A stretch of DNA of 14,578 nucleotides, taken from a virus. The notes below the pieces were generated by a model. The model did no database searches. It was not told the DNA's origin and saw nothing but the letters and a program-made list of their open reading frames with translations. Every line of letters begins with the position of its first letter. Within the stretch, counting starts at the first letter, position 1. The translations under genes and the position numbers were made by a program. Of the stretch, positions 3,554 through 8,348 are shown piece after piece. The stretch lies in UHGV virus genome UHGV-0349585. One strand, written 5' to 3'.

Positions 3554-3832
3554 TCAGGCCTCGAAGAATTCGCCGTTCTTCGGGGCTTTTTCTTTTGTCA
3601 GCATTCTGGCTACTTTCTTAGCCAGTTCCGCCAACTCCTCGTCTTCAACACCCCATTCAAGAACAGCCAGAAGCATTCCCATTTTTGGGATGAAGCTGTC
3701 TTTCCATCGCGAAATTTGCGATTCATTAATCCCTAACGCGTCGGCAACCTTTCGCTGACCACGTACAGCAATTCGATTCAGGATGTTGCTTGTAATTGCA
3801 TTCGCTTTCTTGCGAGTACTTGTAAGTTGCAT
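3554..3832 (-). CDS. cII: CII-like transcriptional activator (92 aa), diverged from lambda CII
   Basis: Conserved core ALGINESQISRWK...FIPKMGMLLAVLEWGV resembles lambda CII; ATG at 3832 preceded by the lambda-like leader CTAAGGAAATACTTACAT; ORF-track frame extends further upstream but this start has the RBS. Confidence 0.75.
   Translation of the reverse strand: MQLTSTRKKANAITSNILNRIAVRGQRKVADALGINESQISRWKDSFIPKMGMLLAVLEWGVEDEELAELAKKVARMLTKEKAPKNGEFFEA
3557..3596 (+). terminator. Strong intrinsic terminator on the strand antisense to cII, overlapping the cII 3' end (oop-RNA-like arrangement)
   Basis: About 11-bp stem GGCCTCGAAGAA/TTCTTCGGGGC with 7-nt loop, followed directly by TTTTTCTTTT on the plus strand. 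Confidence 0.55.
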
Positions 3833-3859
3833 ATGTAAGTATTTCCTTAGATAACAATT

Positions 3860-3900
3860 GATTGAATGTATGCAAATAAATGCATACACCATAGGTGTGG
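3860..3900 (-). terminator. tR1 region hairpin between nutR and cII
   Basis: Perfect 8-bp inverted repeat TGTATGCA/TGCATACA (3867-3888) plus adjacent CACC..GGTG palindrome; matches lambda tR1 region as I recall it. Confidence 0.5.
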
Positions 3901-3911
3901 TTTAATTTGAT

Positions 3912-3943
3912 GCCCTTTTTCAGGGCTGGAATGTGTAAGAGCG
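3912..3943 (-). promoter_or_regulatory. nutR (boxA and boxB)
   Basis: On minus strand: boxA CGCTCTTA (3943-3936) then boxB hairpin GCCCTGAAAAAGGGC (3926-3912), just after cro. Confidence 0.8.
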
Positions 3944-3950
3944 GGGTTAT

Positions 3951-4160
<210 letters not shown>

Positions 4161-4177
4161 TTAGTACATGCAACTAT

Positions 4178-4247
4178 TATCACCGCTAGAGGTAAAATAG
4201 TCAACACGCACGGTGTTAGATATTTATCCCTCGCGGTGATAGATTTA
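4178..4247. promoter_or_regulatory. OR1-OR2-OR3 operators with divergent pR (toward cro) and pRM (toward cI)
   Basis: 17-bp operators at 4178-4194 (OR1), 4202-4218 (OR2), 4225-4241 (OR3); pR -35 and -10 as AGTCAA and ATTATC on the plus strand; pRM -35 TAGATA (4217-4222) and -10 GATTTA (4242-4247); cI ATG at 4252 is leaderless. Confidence 0.85.
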
Positions 4248-4248
4248 A

Positions 4249-4965
<717 letters not shown>

Positions 4966-5264
4966 AGAGGATAGATGGAGTTTAATGGCCATGAGTATCA
5001 AGCGGTCAAAAAGAAGCTCATCTATTCATTGAAAGCATAAGGCCATCTGAGTATATCCGTAATGATCTGGATATTGTCTATAACATCAATGACCGGACGA
5101 TAGATATCGGTGAGCAGCGTCCTGTATGGCAGGGTGAGGCAGGTGAAAAAACGTCCTGCCATCAACAAGAATCAAGTGCATCCGCTCTCTGGACAGATGG
5201 AAAATTTATTGGATGCAAAAAGATATGAAATAACACCTGTATAGCACGGAGCTTTCTCTGACCG

Positions 5265-5660
5265 ATGCACTTGAAGTTGTTAGGGCTGACCCAGCCTGCT
5301 GTTTCTTTAGAGCTTGCCGAGCGATACATCAACGCAACTGAGCCGAAGCCTAGCGACAGCAGCATTACTGCATATAAAAGCCGCATGGAAAGTGCAATCA
5401 AAAAGTTTGTAGCTTTCCAGTCTGGTGAAGAAATCCCATACACTCCGATTGACAAAGAATCCAGTGAGGAAAAAGATTTGACTGGCGAACCAACAAAAGT
5501 CGAAGGCAAGGCTAATGCACTTCATACCTATGATCTTCCAGTAGTTCTTCGACCTGAATCAGGGGTTACAGTAACGATTAAAGGCATTCCTAACGATATC
5601 ACAAACGAAGAAGCCGAACGCATCTCTTCAATTCTGAAGGTTTACGTTCGGCCTCAATAA
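5265..5660 (+). CDS. Hypothetical protein (131 aa) in the slot occupied by rexA/rexB in lambda
   Basis: Longest ORF between cI and the timm-like terminator, co-oriented with cI; acidic and Lys-rich composition; weak RBS; two antisense ORFs overlap it, so coding status is uncertain. Confidence 0.35.
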   Translation: MHLKLLGLTQPAVSLELAERYINATEPKPSDSSITAYKSRMESAIKKFVAFQSGEEIPYTPIDKESSEEKDLTGEPTKVEGKANALHTYDLPVVLRPESGVTVTIKGIPNDITNEEAERISSILKVYVRPQ

Positions 5661-5833
5661 TGCAAAAGCATTCAGCACAATGTCCAACTCCCCAGTCCGA
5701 CATTGATGCTGTTTAACCAGAGCCTCCAAAAGGAGCCCTTGTTAAGGTACACAATATTTGCGATGTAACCTTAGCGCGTCTGGTACATTTTTTCAAGCGG
5801 TTGTAGGGCTGCCGCCAATATGAGAAAACACAG

Positions 5834-5956
5834 ATGTCTACATACAATTTGAATGACCAATTCGATCGAGAAGTTCATGTGAATGCCTATGAACGGATAA
5901 GGCATGGAAATCTTGAACATGTGTGTGAGCATTATCGCTCAAGGCCACACCGCTAA
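5834..5956 (+). CDS. Small hypothetical ORF (40 aa) immediately upstream of the timm-like terminator
   Basis: My own translation MSTYNLNDQFDREVHVNAYERIRHGNLEHVCEHYRSRPHR; weak GAGA-type RBS; ends 5 nt before the terminator stem. Confidence 0.2.
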   Translation: MSTYNLNDQFDREVHVNAYERIRHGNLEHVCEHYRSRPHR

Positions 5957-5961
5957 TCATC

Positions 5962-5990
5962 AACCCGGCCTCCATGCCGGGTTTTCTTTT
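5962..5990 (+). terminator. Intrinsic terminator ending the cI operon (timm-like)
   Basis: CCCGGC/GCCGGG stem (5964-5981) with 6-nt loop followed by TTTTCTTTT. Confidence 0.6.
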
Positions 5991-6140
5991 CCTCTCGCCC
6001 CAAAAAAAACGCATAACCAATTGTATTTATTTCAAAATTAATAGATACAACTCACTAAACATCGCAATTCAGATCTCTCGATCACCTTCCCAATCCACAC
6101 AACCCTGCAAAAAATAAATCTATATAAAAAACATACAGAT

Positions 6141-6203
6141 AACCATCTGCGGTGATAAATTATCTCTGGCGGTGTTGACATAAATACCACTGGCGGTGAT
6201 ACT
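6141..6203 (+). promoter_or_regulatory. OL3-OL2-OL1 operators and pL promoter
   Basis: 17-bp operators at 6141-6157, 6161-6177, 6185-6201; -35 TTGACA (6175-6180); -10 GATACT (6198-6203). Confidence 0.9.
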
Positions 6204-6242
6204 AAGCACATCAGCAGGACGCACTGACCACCATGAAGGTGA

Positions 6243-6273
6243 CGCTCTTAAAAATTAAGCCCTGAAGAAGGGC
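6243..6273 (+). promoter_or_regulatory. nutL (boxA and boxB)
   Basis: boxA CGCTCTTA (6243-6250); boxB hairpin GCCCTGAAGAAGGGC (6259-6273). Confidence 0.85.
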
Positions 6274-6430
6274 AGCATTCAAAGCAGAAGGCTTTGGTGT
6301 GTGTGATACGAAACGAAGCATTGGCCGGAAGTGCGAATCCGGATTAGCTGCCAATGTGCCATTGCGGGGTGTTTTCGTTCAGGACTACGACTCCCACACA
6401 CAACCAAAGCTAACTGACAGGAGAATCCAG

Positions 6431-6757
6431 ATGGATGCACAAACACGCCGCCGCGAACGTCGCGCAGAGAAACAGGCTCAATGGAAAGCAGCAAATCCCC
6501 TGTTGGTTGGGGTAAGCGCAAAACCAGTTAACCGCCCTATTCTCTCGCTGAATCGCAAACCGAAATCACGAGTAGAAAGCGCACTGAATCCGATAGACCT
6601 TACAGTGCTGGCTGAATACCACGAACAGATTGAAAGCAACCTGCAACGTATTGAGCGCAAGAATCAGCGCACATGGTACAGCAAGCCACGCAGTGAAATG
6701 GGTGTGACTTGTGTTGGTCGCCAGAAAATGAAATTAGGCAGCAAACCACTTATTTGA
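6431..6757 (+). CDS. N: N antitermination protein (108 aa), lambda-like with a divergent C-terminus
   Basis: MDAQTRRRERRAEKQAQWKAANPLLVGVSAKPVNRPILSLNRKPK... with Arg-rich N-terminal motif; AGGAG RBS before ATG at 6431; ORF-track frame 6299-6757 is an upstream extension into the leader. Confidence 0.9.
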   Translation: MDAQTRRRERRAEKQAQWKAANPLLVGVSAKPVNRPILSLNRKPKSRVESALNPIDLTVLAEYHEQIESNLQRIERKNQRTWYSKPRSEMGVTCVGRQKMKLGSKPLI

Positions 6758-6765
6758 GGTGAGAT

Positions 6766-7236
6766 ATGACAATATCATGGAGCGTACCTTTTCCTGAATC
6801 AGAAACTGAACATGATGGAATGCCTGTTTTCTGGAGATTCCAGGCGACAGTTGAAGAATATGGAATCAAAATATTCGCACTTCAATATATAGCTTTTCAT
6901 CAGACAGAGCATTATGCATGGTTGGTTCCTGCGCATTGGATTGTTAATTTTAAACCAGCACCAAATCAGTGGTTACAGGAATGGAAACAAAAGAGAAATA
7001 GATATGCAATTAAGAAAGTAGCAAAAAATGCAGAAAGATCTTTTGCATTCCCAACGAAGAAACTTGCCATTGAAAGTTTATTGCGCCGGAAGAAATACCA
7101 TTTAATGAGAATCAAACAAGATTTGGCTGTTGTATCAACTCTTGTTGATGGGATGAAGAATATTGATACATCAACACCAGATATTGAATATAACTTTGGA
7201 CACAACCAAGAAACAGAAAATTGGGTATTTTATTAG
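6766..7236 (+). CDS. Hypothetical protein (156 aa), AT-rich accessory gene directly downstream of N
   Basis: GAGGTGAG RBS then ATG 8 nt after N stop; visibly AT-rich versus neighbours (by eye); no motif I recognise; Trp/His-rich N-terminal half, Lys/Arg-rich middle. Confidence 0.7.
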   Translation: MTISWSVPFPESETEHDGMPVFWRFQATVEEYGIKIFALQYIAFHQTEHYAWLVPAHWIVNFKPAPNQWLQEWKQKRNRYAIKKVAKNAERSFAFPTKKLAIESLLRRKKYHLMRIKQDLAVVSTLVDGMKNIDTSTPDIEYNFGHNQETENWVFY

Positions 7237-7250
7237 TACGAATAAGCACT

Positions 7251-7278
7251 GTGTATTCATTCCAACGAGTGAATACAC
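7251..7278. repeat. Perfect 9-bp inverted repeat with 10-nt loop
   Basis: GTGTATTCA (7251-7259) and TGAATACAC (7270-7278); no T-run follows. Confidence 0.5.
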
Positions 7279-7340
7279 GGAGCAATGTCGCTCGTAACTA
7301 AACAGGAGCCGACTTGTTCTGATTATTGGAAATCTTCTTT

Positions 7341-7367
7341 GCCCTCCGGTGTGAGGGCAATTTTTTT
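7341..7367 (+). terminator. Intrinsic terminator between the AT-rich ORF and the coiled-coil gene
   Basis: GCCCTC/GAGGGC stem with 6-nt loop followed by AATTTTTTT. Confidence 0.6.
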
Positions 7368-7379
7368 GACGGAGGATAT

Positions 7380-8348
7380 ATGAGTGAAGTAACAGATTTA
7401 GTTGTTATTGAAAAAGCAAATGCAATGACTGTATTTCAGTCTGCCGACCAGATTGAAGAAATCCTTCAAAAGGTTGAACGTGAAGTTATGTCCTTTGTGC
7501 CTGATATCACAACGGCAAAGGGCAGAAAGGAGATCGCTTCTCTGGCGTATAAAGTTGCGCAGACGAAAACATATCTCGATGGTCTTGGAAAAGACCTTGT
7601 TGCTGAACTGAAGGAAATTCCAAAGCTAATTGATGCCAACCGCAAGACAGTGCGCGATCGCCTTGATGAGCTGAAAGCCAAGGCACGCCAGCCTCTTACT
7701 GATTATGAAGAGGAACAGGCGCGAATTAAAGCTGAAGAAGAAGCTAAGGCAGCAGCTGAAGCTCTCGCAAAGCAAATTGAGTCTGACCATGAAATAGCGA
7801 TTTTGATGGATCGCGAATTTGACCGCCAAAGAGAAGAGGCAAGACTCAAAGCGGAGCAGGAAAAGCGAGAGCATGAAGAACGCTTAAAAAGAGAAGCTGA
7901 AGAGAAAGCCAGAGCTGAAGCCGAAGCAAAGGCAAAAGCCGAAATTGAAGCAGCAGCAAGGCGAGAAGCAGAAGCTAAGGCCGCAGCGGAACGTGCAGAG
8001 CGTGAACGCATTGAAGCCGAGCAACGAGCACAGCGCGAAGCAAAAGAGGCAGCAGAACGAGCTGAAAGAGAAAAGCAGGCAGCAATTGAAGCAGAACGCA
8101 GAAAAGCACAGGAGGAGGCTGAACGAATCCGGCGCGAGGCTGAAGCAAAAGAGCAAGCCAGAATAGCAGAAGAAAAAAGAATCAAGGACGAAGAAGAGCG
8201 TAGAGCAAAGGATAAAGCTCACCGAAAAGAAGTAAATAACAAAATACTTGCTGACCTTATCAAGGTTGGCGCATCAGAAGATGTTGCTAAAAATATCATA
8301 ACAGCCATCGTAAAAGGCGAAGTATTCGCAACAAAAATAACCTACTAA
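7380..8348 (+). CDS. Charged coiled-coil protein (about 322 aa) with Glu/Ala/Lys/Arg-rich low-complexity central region
   Basis: GGAGGA RBS then ATG at 7380 (MSEVTDL...); central 200 residues are EAKA/ERAE-type repeats; globular-looking ends; ORF-track frame starts 18 codons upstream without an RBS. Confidence 0.75.
   Translation: MSEVTDLVVIEKANAMTVFQSADQIEEILQKVEREVMSFVPDITTAKGRKEIASLAYKVAQTKTYLDGLGKDLVAELKEIPKLIDANRKTVRDRLDELKAKARQPLTDYEEEQARIKAEEEAKAAAEALAKQIESDHEIAILMDREFDRQREEARLKAEQEKREHEERLKREAEEKARAEAEAKAKAEIEAAARREAEAKAAAERAERERIEAEQRAQREAKEAAERAEREKQAAIEAERRKAQEEAERIRREAEAKEQARIAEEKRIKDEEERRAKDKAHRKEVNNKILADLIKVGASEDVAKNIITAIVKGEVFATKITY

What the first reader, a model, noticed from the sequence alone, without database searches (positions are those of the whole stretch)
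4178..4241. Operator and pR -10 bases differ from the canonical lambda sequences as I remember them
OR1 reads TATCACCGCTAGAGGTA where I recall lambda as TATCACCGCCAGAGGTA, and OR3 reads TATCACCGCGAGGGATA where I recall TATCACCGCAAGGGATA. The pR -10 neighbourhood reads GATAATAGT versus GATAATGGT, and the pL -10 reads GATACTAAG versus GATACTGAG. Alongside a few cI substitutions these may be natural co-variation of a lambda-immunity relative, but operator changes at these positions can alter repressor affinity and lysogen stability. The lambda sequences are from memory and may be misrecalled.
Basis: partly seen in the sequence, partly recalled or inferred. Interest (0 to 1): 0.35.

Follow-up and report, generated by a model that had tools for sequence, protein, structure and literature searches.

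The report
Natural variants of lambda's operators
The four bases that differ from textbook phage lambda are real. They are common, previously sequenced natural variants at the least critical positions of the lambda repressor switch, so this is an ordinary wild relative of lambda.

Summary
Window 4178-4241 is the right operator (OR1-OR2-OR3, with divergent promoters pR and pRM) of a mosaic lambdoid prophage that carries the lambda immunity module.

- **Operator changes.** Two lie at the same operator position, 8' (the innermost base pair of the non-consensus half-site): OR1 at window 4187 and OR3 at 4232.
- **Promoter changes.** The other two are not operator or -10 hexamer bases. They are position -6, the first discriminator base, of pR (4175) and pL (6204).
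- **Seen before.** OR1, OR3 and pL -6 are in phage CL707. pR -6, OR1 and pL -6 are in phage HK542. Both GenBank records date from the 2007 Little-lab survey of wild lambda-immunity phages.
- **Seen widely.** The exact 131-bp OR sequence occurs in 7 complete E. coli genome records. Single alleles occur in 12 to 253 genomes. The pL allele is about three times commoner than lambda's own.
- **Small effect.** The OR1 change has a measured cost of 0.4 kcal/mol for CI binding.
- **No excess, no co-variation.** Divergence in the control region (3%) matches that in cI (2.8%), and the alleles reassort freely.

Verdict: observation confirmed; it is known, near-neutral natural polymorphism of low interest.

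The parts
3912..3943 (-). nutR (boxB 3912-3926, boxA 3936-3943)
   Evidence: Sequence read. Coordinates transferred from the CL707 annotation (offset +3544). This block is 100% identical to lambda.
3951..4151 (-). cro, identical to lambda cro in nucleotide and protein sequence
   Evidence: ORF. There are 0 differences in 201 nt against NC_001416.
4169..4204 (-). pR: +1 at 4169, -10 GATAAT at 4176-4181, -35 TTGACT at 4199-4204. The variant is at 4175, which is -6 (G to A on the non-template strand), the first discriminator base.
   Evidence: Promoter scan, CL707 and HK542 annotation, alignments. The allele is present in HK542, in 24/120 IMG/VR loci and, together with the OR1 variant, in 68 E. 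coli genomes.
4178..4194 (.). OR1, TATCACCGCTAGAGGTA. The variant is at 4187, position 8' of the non-consensus half (lambda C, here T).
   Evidence: Same allele in CL707 and HK542. Found in 76/120 IMG/VR loci and in at least 152 E. coli genomes. Measured ddG for CI is +0.4 kcal/mol.
4202..4218 (.). OR2, identical to lambda
4225..4241 (.). OR3, TATCCCTCGCGGTGATA on the + strand. The variant is at 4232, position 8' (lambda T, here C). It lies in the pRM spacer at -20.
   Evidence: Same allele in CL707. Rare: 3/120 IMG/VR loci and 12 E. coli genomes.
4217..4252 (+). pRM: -35 TAGATA at 4217-4222, -10 TAGATT at 4240-4245, +1 at 4252 (the A of the cI ATG; leaderless). Both hexamers are identical to lambda.
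   Evidence: CL707 and HK542 annotation transferred. Alignment.
4252..4965 (+). cI repressor, 237 aa. It has three substitutions relative to lambda (T2A, K70N, G124V in mature numbering), the same three as CL707.
   Evidence: There are 20 nucleotide differences in 714 bp, of which 3 change an amino acid. Ala2 (92/109) and Asn70 (86/109) are the commoner alleles among IMG/VR loci. Val124 is rare (3/109).
5962..5983 (+). Terminator-like hairpin at the position of lambda t_imm. Homology to lambda resumes here.
   Evidence: Terminator scan. BLAST block 5962-6732 against lambda. CL707 and HK542 records annotate Timm at the equivalent place.
6141..6201 (.). OL3 (6141-6157), OL2 (6161-6177) and OL1 (6185-6201), all identical to lambda
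6175..6210 (+). pL: -35 TTGACA at 6175-6180, -10 GATACT at 6198-6203, +1 at 6210. The variant is at 6204, which is -6 (G to A).
   Evidence: The allele is present in CL707 and HK542, in 60/74 IMG/VR loci, and in 253 E. coli genomes against 85 with lambda's G.
6243..6273 (+). nutL (boxA CGCTCTTA at 6243-6250, boxB at 6259-6273)
   Evidence: Sequence. Identical to lambda in the alignment.
6431..6757 (+). N antiterminator. It is lambda-type, and its 3' end diverges from lambda.
   Evidence: phrog_271, E = 8.7e-27. The BLAST block against lambda ends at 6732.

Best explanation
The stretch is the OR control region of a mosaic lambdoid prophage that carries the phage-lambda immunity module: cro, pR/OR1-OR2-OR3/pRM, cI, then OL/pL and N.

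It most likely works as in lambda. CI dimers bind OR1 and OR2 cooperatively, which represses pR and activates pRM. OR3 and OL mediate autorepression. Cro binds OR3 first.

The four differences from reference lambda are standing natural polymorphisms of wild lambda-immunity phages, and they sit at weakly constrained positions.

- Two are at operator position 8', the innermost base pair of the non-consensus half-site. There CI discriminates least. The measured cost of the OR1 change is 0.4 kcal/mol, about 1.9-fold in Kd. Using the same OR1-derived matrix and assuming additivity, the OR3 change would tighten binding by about 0.3 kcal/mol.
- Two are at -6 of pR and pL. They lie outside the operators and outside the -10 hexamers, at the non-template discriminator base that contacts sigma region 1.2. 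They can at most modestly change open-complex lifetime.

The expected net effect on the switch is no more than about 2-fold in any single parameter, within the range the lambda circuit tolerates.

Shown here: the presence of the changes, their positions, their occurrence in other phages and genomes, and the measured OR1 ddG. Inferred: the OR3 and -6 effects, and the near-neutrality for lysogen stability.
For: **The changes are real.** Alignments to NC_001416 show them.

**They are in published wild phages.** CL707 (EF120459) carries the OR1, OR3 and pL -6 alleles and the same three CI substitutions. HK542 (EF120458) carries the pR -6, OR1 and pL -6 alleles. [quoted passage not shown] 2007; citation seen).

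**They are widespread in E. coli.** The exact 131-bp OR sequence is found at 100% identity in 7 complete-genome records. Counts by exact 30-mer:

| Allele | Genomes |
|---|---|
| pR-6 + OR1, window type | 68 |
| OR1-T with lambda pR | 84 |
| lambda type (pR/OR1) | 325 |
| OR3-C | 12 |
| pL AAG (window) | 253 |
| pL GAG (lambda) | 85 |

**IMG/VR shows where variation falls.** In 120 loci sampled without conditioning on operator sequence, variation is confined to a few sites: pR -5 and -6, OR1 8', OR3 8' and the spacers. In 74 loci with OL, it falls at OL1 8', OL2 8' and pL -6, -4 and -2.

**The measured cost is small.** In the Sarai-Takeda ddG table, G10-C32 to A-T costs 0.4 kcal/mol. All substitutions at that position cost 0.2-0.5, against 2.5-2.7 at the symmetric consensus-half position.

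**The protein and promoter parts are intact.** Cro is identical, and no canonical DNA-contact residue of CI is changed as far as I recall them. The promoter hexamers are intact.

**Divergence is not elevated.** The intergenic rate is 3.0% against 2.8% in cI.
Against: - No binding, transcription or induction measurement exists for this exact combination of alleles.
- The Cro ddG values for position 8' could not be retrieved.
- The OR3 estimate assumes additivity and uses a matrix measured on OR1.
- A review states that -6G on the non-template strand flips into a sigma-1.2 pocket. The two -6 changes may therefore not be fully neutral for pR and pL open-complex stability.
- OR3-C and CI G124V are rare alleles (about 2-3%), so their neutrality is less well supported by frequency than that of the other alleles.
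Confidence: 0.9

Rival explanations
1. Adaptive retuning or compensatory co-variation. On this reading, the operator and discriminator changes and the CI substitutions (T2A in the N-terminal arm, K70N, G124V) were co-selected to shift the switch set-point, for example the induction threshold or basal pR/pL leak. The haplotype would then be a functional unit rather than neutral drift.
For: - Changes recur at equivalent positions: 8' in OR1, OR3, OL1 and OL2, and -6/-5/-4 in both pR and pL.
- The OR1 and OL1 8' variants are almost mutually exclusive. Only 1 of 74 loci has both (Fisher p = 3e-4, not corrected for phylogeny).
- OR1-T is almost always found with CI Ala2: 75 loci against 1.
- -6G is a sigma-1.2 contact.
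- A simple CI-only occupancy model gives about 1.9-fold more unrepressed pR and somewhat higher OR3 occupancy (parameters recalled from memory).
Against: - The alleles reassort. Ala2 occurs with both OR1 alleles (25 loci with C, 75 with T). pR-6 and pL-6 are uncoupled: 45 loci have pL-A with lambda-type pR.
- Recurrence at 8' is what relaxed constraint predicts, because ddG there is 0.5 kcal/mol or less.
- The linked sites are 70 bp apart, so association is expected from linkage alone.
- Divergence in the region is not elevated.
- The OL1-A loci come from several backgrounds, but there are only 11 of them.
Confidence: 0.07
2. The sequence is a laboratory-derived operator mutant or an engineered construct, such as a virulent or operator-constitutive lambda derivative or an expression-vector cassette, rather than a natural allele.
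For: The region is 98% identical to lambda. Point changes in OR1 and OR3 are the classical way such mutants were made.
Against: - The flanks are a natural mosaic. There is a non-lambda cII, an O-like initiator plus a DnaB-type helicase, a Rad52/Erf-type recombinase, and other cargo in place of rexAB.
- The same alleles occur in wild isolates from California and Hong Kong and in dozens of E. coli chromosomes from humans, animals and water.
- Position 8' changes cost 0.5 kcal/mol or less, so they would not give an operator-constitutive phenotype.
- All 23 lambda-OR matches found in the genome-contig scan, nearly all of them in genera that are not lambda hosts, carry the reference alleles, not these.
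Confidence: 0.01
3. The four differences are sequencing or assembly errors in an otherwise reference-lambda operator region.
For: All four are single-base transitions.
Against: - Identical bases are found in independently sequenced phages and genomes.
- The nearest IMG/VR locus differs by only 3 of 1015 bases over cro-cI.
- The changes form known haplotypes together with 20 further differences in cI.
Confidence: 0.01

Closest known systems
Phage lambda OR/OL immunity region (NC_001416 / J02459)
   Same: The architecture is the same: three 17-bp operators at OR with 7-bp and 6-bp spacers, divergent pR and pRM, and three operators at OL overlapping pL. OR2, OL1, OL2, OL3 and all four promoter hexamers involved are identical. 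Cro is identical. CI is 234/237 identical.
   Different: - Four single-base transitions: OR1 8', OR3 8', pR -6 and pL -6.
- Three CI substitutions.
- rexAB is replaced by unrelated cargo.
- cII, the replication genes and the recombination genes are non-lambda alleles.
Wild lambda-immunity phage CL707 (EF120459; Degnan, Michalowski, Babic, Cordes & Little 2007)
   Same: CL707 has the same OR1, OR3 and pL -6 alleles and the same three CI substitutions. It is 99.6% identical over cro-OR-cI.
   Different: CL707 has lambda's G at pR -6. It also has different cargo between cI and OL (a 301-aa ORF) and a more divergent nutL/N region.
Wild lambda-immunity phage HK542 (EF120458 / JQ086373)
   Same: HK542 has the same pR -6, OR1 and pL -6 alleles. 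Its OL/pL segment is identical to the window's over 81 bp.
   Different: HK542 has lambda's T at the OR3 variant position. It carries different cargo in the rex position (two ORFs).

Membership tests
Lambda immunity group (imm-lambda) operator/promoter module | Tripartite OR with three 17-bp pseudo-symmetric operators of the lambda consensus (TATCACCGC half-site), lambda spacing, and overlapping divergent pR and pRM | tested here: met
   OR1 is at 4178-4194, OR2 at 4202-4218 and OR3 at 4225-4241. There are 98/101 identities to lambda across the region. The pR hexamers were found by the scan.
Lambda immunity group (imm-lambda) operator/promoter module | Tripartite OL overlapping pL, followed by nutL and N | tested here: met
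   OL3, OL2 and OL1 at 6141-6201 are identical to lambda. pL has a single change, at -6. nutL and N are present.
Lambda immunity group (imm-lambda) operator/promoter module | Cognate lambda-type CI and Cro flanking OR | tested here: met
   Cro is 66/66 identical. CI is 234/237 identical.
Lambda immunity group (imm-lambda) operator/promoter module | Functional homoimmunity with lambda: a lysogen is immune to lambda, and the reverse | not testable with these tools
   This needs plating tests. Indirect support: CL707 and HK542, which between them carry all four variant bases, come from a study whose title says the phages have the immunity specificity of lambda.
Operator-constitutive / virulent (v-type) lambda operator mutants | A base change at an operator position that strongly reduces CI binding (about 2 kcal/mol or more) | tested here: not met
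   The OR1 change (G10-C32 to A-T) has a measured ddG of 0.4 kcal/mol. Every substitution at that position costs 0.5 or less. The OR3 change is at the equivalent position.

The most novel reading that the evidence does not exclude
The recurrent transitions at operator position 8' (OR1, OR3, OL1, OL2) and at the pR and pL discriminators (-6, -5, -4) might not be neutral. They could be naturally selected tuning sites that set the stability and induction threshold of the lambda switch in the wild. The near-exclusive distribution of the OR1 and OL1 8' variants would then reflect a constraint on total CI affinity across the OL-OR loop.
Probability: 0.07. Interest if true: 0.4.

Novelty: already known. 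Interest (0 to 1): 0.08.

Why it matters
It matters little for discovery. The window is an ordinary wild member of the lambda immunity group, and the variant bases were deposited with annotated operators in 2007.

The useful points are practical:
- Reference lambda is only one haplotype of a polymorphic natural population. At pL -6 it carries the rarer allele.
- Natural variation marks out the weakly constrained positions of a textbook switch: operator position 8', the discriminators and the spacers.
- Differences from the reference at these sites should not be read as operator mutations.

Tried and rejected
- **Failed scan.** A first anchored IMG/VR scan used the wrong gap length and found nothing. 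It was repeated correctly.
- **Papers not held.** I tried to read Degnan et al. 2007 (PubMed 17376085) and Sarai & Takeda 1989 (PMC297874). Neither is held. The Degnan citation was confirmed only through reference lists. The Sarai-Takeda values were taken from Table 3 of PMC2194778.
- **Cro data.** Cro ddG values for OR1 mutants are not tabulated in that paper.
- **Empty literature searches.** Searches for CL707, HK542 and CI G124 gave nothing relevant.
- **A claim I corrected.** The first IMG/VR result suggested lambda's OR1 allele is the minority. Counts in complete E. coli genomes do not support this for OR1: 325 genomes have the lambda type, against at least 152 with OR1-T. I therefore claim only that both alleles are common. 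For pL -6, lambda's allele is the rarer one in both data sets.
- **Species-representative scan.** It returned only reference-lambda haplotypes, in 23 assemblies that are nearly all from genera that are not lambda hosts. This looks like laboratory lambda carry-over and says nothing about the host of the window.
- **Source of the window.** No complete E. coli genome matches more than 59% of the window, so the source prophage was not identified.

Full report
**What is there**

The window is read with cI on the + strand.

| Feature | Window coordinates |
|---|---|
| cro | 3951-4151 (-) |
| pR | +1 at 4169, -10 GATAAT at 4176-4181, -35 TTGACT at 4199-4204 (-) |
| OR1 | 4178-4194 |
| OR2 | 4202-4218 |
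| OR3 | 4225-4241 |
| pRM | 4217-4245, +1 at 4252 |
| cI | 4252-4965 (+) |
| OL3, OL2, OL1 | 6141-6201 |
| pL | -10 GATACT at 6198-6203, +1 at 6210 |
| nutL | 6243-6273 |
| N | 6431-6757 |

**Checking the observation**

The changes are these:
- 4187: OR1, lambda C, here T.
- 4232: OR3, lambda T, here C on this strand.
- 4175: pR.
- 6204: pL.

- The -10 hexamers are unchanged. The pR and pL changes are both at -6, the first discriminator base, which lies three bases beyond the end of OR1 or OL1. They are not operator changes.
- Both operator changes fall at the same operator position. This is 8', the innermost base pair of the non-consensus half-site, next to the central base pair.

The CI protein differs from lambda at three residues: T2A, K70N and G124V in mature numbering. 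Cro is identical even at the nucleotide level.

**Is it more than chance?**

It is not. Over cro-OR-cI there are 23 differences from lambda in 1015 bp.

| Segment | Differences | Length (bp) |
|---|---|---|
| cro | 0 | 201 |
| cro-cI intergenic region | 3 | 100 |
| cI | 20 | 714 |

Three in 100 (P = 0.40) and two in the 51 operator bases (P = 0.32) are what the regional rate predicts. Of the 20 cI changes, 17 are synonymous. The control region is therefore less diverged than silent sites, as expected under purifying selection.

The window is 100% identical to lambda from 3830 to 4174 and about 2.9% diverged from 4175 to 4964. This suggests an old recombination junction near pR/OR1.

**Related sequences**

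The best phage match is CL707 (EF120459), at 99.6% over cro-OR-cI. Next come HK244, HK542, HK544, mEp332, HK97, HK106, mEp234 and lambda itself, at about 96-98%.

The EF1204xx records are immunity-region sequences with annotated operators and promoters. They belong to Degnan, Michalowski, Babic, Cordes & Little 2007, Mol Microbiol 64:232. I could confirm that paper only as a citation. I could not read it.

CL707 carries the OR1, OR3 and pL -6 alleles and the same three CI substitutions. HK542 carries the pR -6, OR1 and pL -6 alleles. Every variant base was therefore already in GenBank in phages described as having lambda's immunity specificity.

**Population frequencies**

The exact 131-bp OR sequence (4140-4270) is found at 100% identity in 7 complete E. 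coli genome records out of about 620 that carry this OR.

Exact 30-mers that force the allele state give these counts in complete E. coli genomes:

| 30-mer | Genomes |
|---|---|
| Window pR-6 / OR1 combination | 68 |
| OR1-T with lambda-type pR | 84 |
| Lambda pR / OR1 combination | 325 |
| OR3-C | 12 |
| Window pL (GATACT-AAG) | 253 |
| Lambda pL (GATACT-GAG) | 85 |

In 120 IMG/VR loci retrieved with anchors outside the operators, the OR variation is as follows:
- OR1 8' T: 76/120.
- pR -6: 24/120.
- pR -5: 20/120.
- OR3 8' C: 3/120.
- A few spacer sites also vary, and a few OR2 positions vary at low frequency (4210, the central base pair, in 7/120).

In the 74 loci where OL was recovered:
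- pL -6 A: 60/74.
- pL -4 A: 40/74.
- OL1 8': 11/74.
- OL2 8': 2/74.

Natural variation therefore concentrates at operator position 8', the discriminators and the spacers. The window's alleles are ordinary members of that spectrum. Only OR3-C, and the linked CI G124V, are rare.

**Likely function**

The Sarai & Takeda systematic substitution data for CI on OR1 are reproduced in Table 3 of PMC2194778. They give +0.4 kcal/mol for exactly this change (G10-C32 to A-T), and 0.2-0.5 for any substitution at that position. The symmetric consensus-half position costs 2.5-2.7.

Using the same matrix and assuming additivity, the OR3 change (T to C on the equivalent strand) would be about -0.3 kcal/mol. 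That would be slightly tighter binding. This is an inference.

I ran a CI-only occupancy model with ddG1 = +0.4 and ddG3 = -0.3. The baseline energies were recalled from memory, so this is illustrative only. It gives about 1.9-fold more unrepressed pR and moderately higher OR3 occupancy at lysogenic CI levels.

For the -6 changes, a review states that with a six-base discriminator the non-template -6G flips into a pocket of sigma region 1.2, and that GGG is the preferred discriminator start (PMC4496709). G to A at -6 could therefore modestly shorten open-complex lifetime at pR and pL. This has not been measured.

From general knowledge, marked as such: Little, Shepley & Wert 1999 showed that the lambda circuit tolerates much more drastic operator exchanges.

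**Co-variation**

The sites reassort.
- OR1 x CI residue 2 shows all four combinations (T/Ala 75, C/Ala 25, C/Thr 18, T/Thr 1), plus one locus with a synonymous Ala codon.
- pR-6 x OR1 also shows all four combinations.
- pL-6 A occurs in 45 loci with lambda-type pR.

The associations that exist are between sites tens of base pairs apart, so linkage explains them.

One pattern remains unexplained. The OR1 and OL1 8' variants are almost mutually exclusive: 1 of 74 loci has both (Fisher p = 3e-4). The 11 OL1-variant loci have several different OR haplotypes and cargo lengths. The test is not corrected for ancestry, and the sample is small.

**Context**

The prophage is a typical mosaic.
- Homology to lambda is limited to 1-905 (the nin region), 3830-4961, 5962-6732 and 7246-7366.
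- Upstream of cro lie a non-lambda cII (Phage_CII), an O-like initiator, a DnaB-type helicase and NinB.
- rexA and rexB are replaced by about 1 kb of other sequence, including a 131-aa ORF of unknown function (phrog_2602).
- Downstream of N lie unknown ORFs, a Rad52/Erf-type annealing protein, SSB, an endonuclease and an exonuclease.
- No complete E. coli genome covers more than 59% of the window.

**Verdict**

The feature is already known, and interest is low. The residual novel reading is that position 8' and the discriminators are selected tuning sites. I give that about 7%.

Noticed in passing
window 4966-5961: The rexA-rexB position between cI and t_imm/OL holds unrelated cargo. It includes a 131-aa ORF (5265-5660, + strand) that matches only phrog_2602 (unknown function, no Pfam hit), plus some small ORFs. 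Related loci carry different cargo of varied length at the same place: cI-to-OL distances range from about 1300 to 2400 bp.
   Followed up: partly
window 3830-4174 versus 4175-4964: The nutR-cro side is 100% identical to reference lambda (345 bp, 0 differences). The OR-cI side has 23 differences in 790 bp. P for 0 differences in the 201 bp of cro is 0.01 at the regional rate. This suggests a recombination junction at about pR/OR1, inside the immunity module.
   Followed up: partly
window 4624-4626 (cI codon for mature residue 124): CI G124V is a rare allele: 3 of 109 IMG/VR loci, and also present in CL707. It is linked to the rare OR3-C allele. It lies about 12 residues downstream of the Ala111-Gly112 self-cleavage site, so an effect on RecA-mediated induction is conceivable. 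A literature search found nothing.
   Followed up: partly
window 4187 (OR1) and 6192 (OL1); IMG/VR loci L003-L122: The same 8' G-to-A transition is polymorphic in OR1 (76/120) and OL1 (11/74), but the two variants almost never occur together: 1 of 74 loci (Fisher p = 3e-4, not corrected for ancestry). The window has the OR1 variant and lambda-type OL1.
   Followed up: partly
window 4174-4175 and 6204-6208; IMG/VR loci: The discriminators of both early promoters are hotspots of G-to-A polymorphism in wild lambda-immunity phages. The frequencies are pR -5 in 20/120, pR -6 in 24/120, pL -6 in 60/74, pL -4 in 40/74 and pL -2 (A to G) in 9/74. The -10 and -35 hexamers are almost invariant.
   Followed up: partly
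loci L124-L146 (genome-contig scan): The lambda OR sequence occurs in 23 species-representative assemblies. Nearly all are from genera that are not lambda hosts (Enterococcus, Marinobacter, Desulfovibrio, Kitasatospora, Mycobacterium, Helicobacter and others); Citrobacter youngae may be a genuine host. Several are contigs of about 48.4 kb or of low coverage. All carry the reference-lambda haplotype, including CI Thr2. This looks like laboratory lambda DNA carried over into assemblies, and it inflates database counts of the reference alleles.
   Followed up: partly
window 6766-8348: Two ORFs lie just downstream of N: 156 aa at 6766-7236 and 340 aa at 7326-8348. They match only PHROG families of unknown function (phrog_1636, phrog_1376) and have no Pfam hit. 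They sit where lambda has sieB, ral and the ea genes.
   Followed up: no
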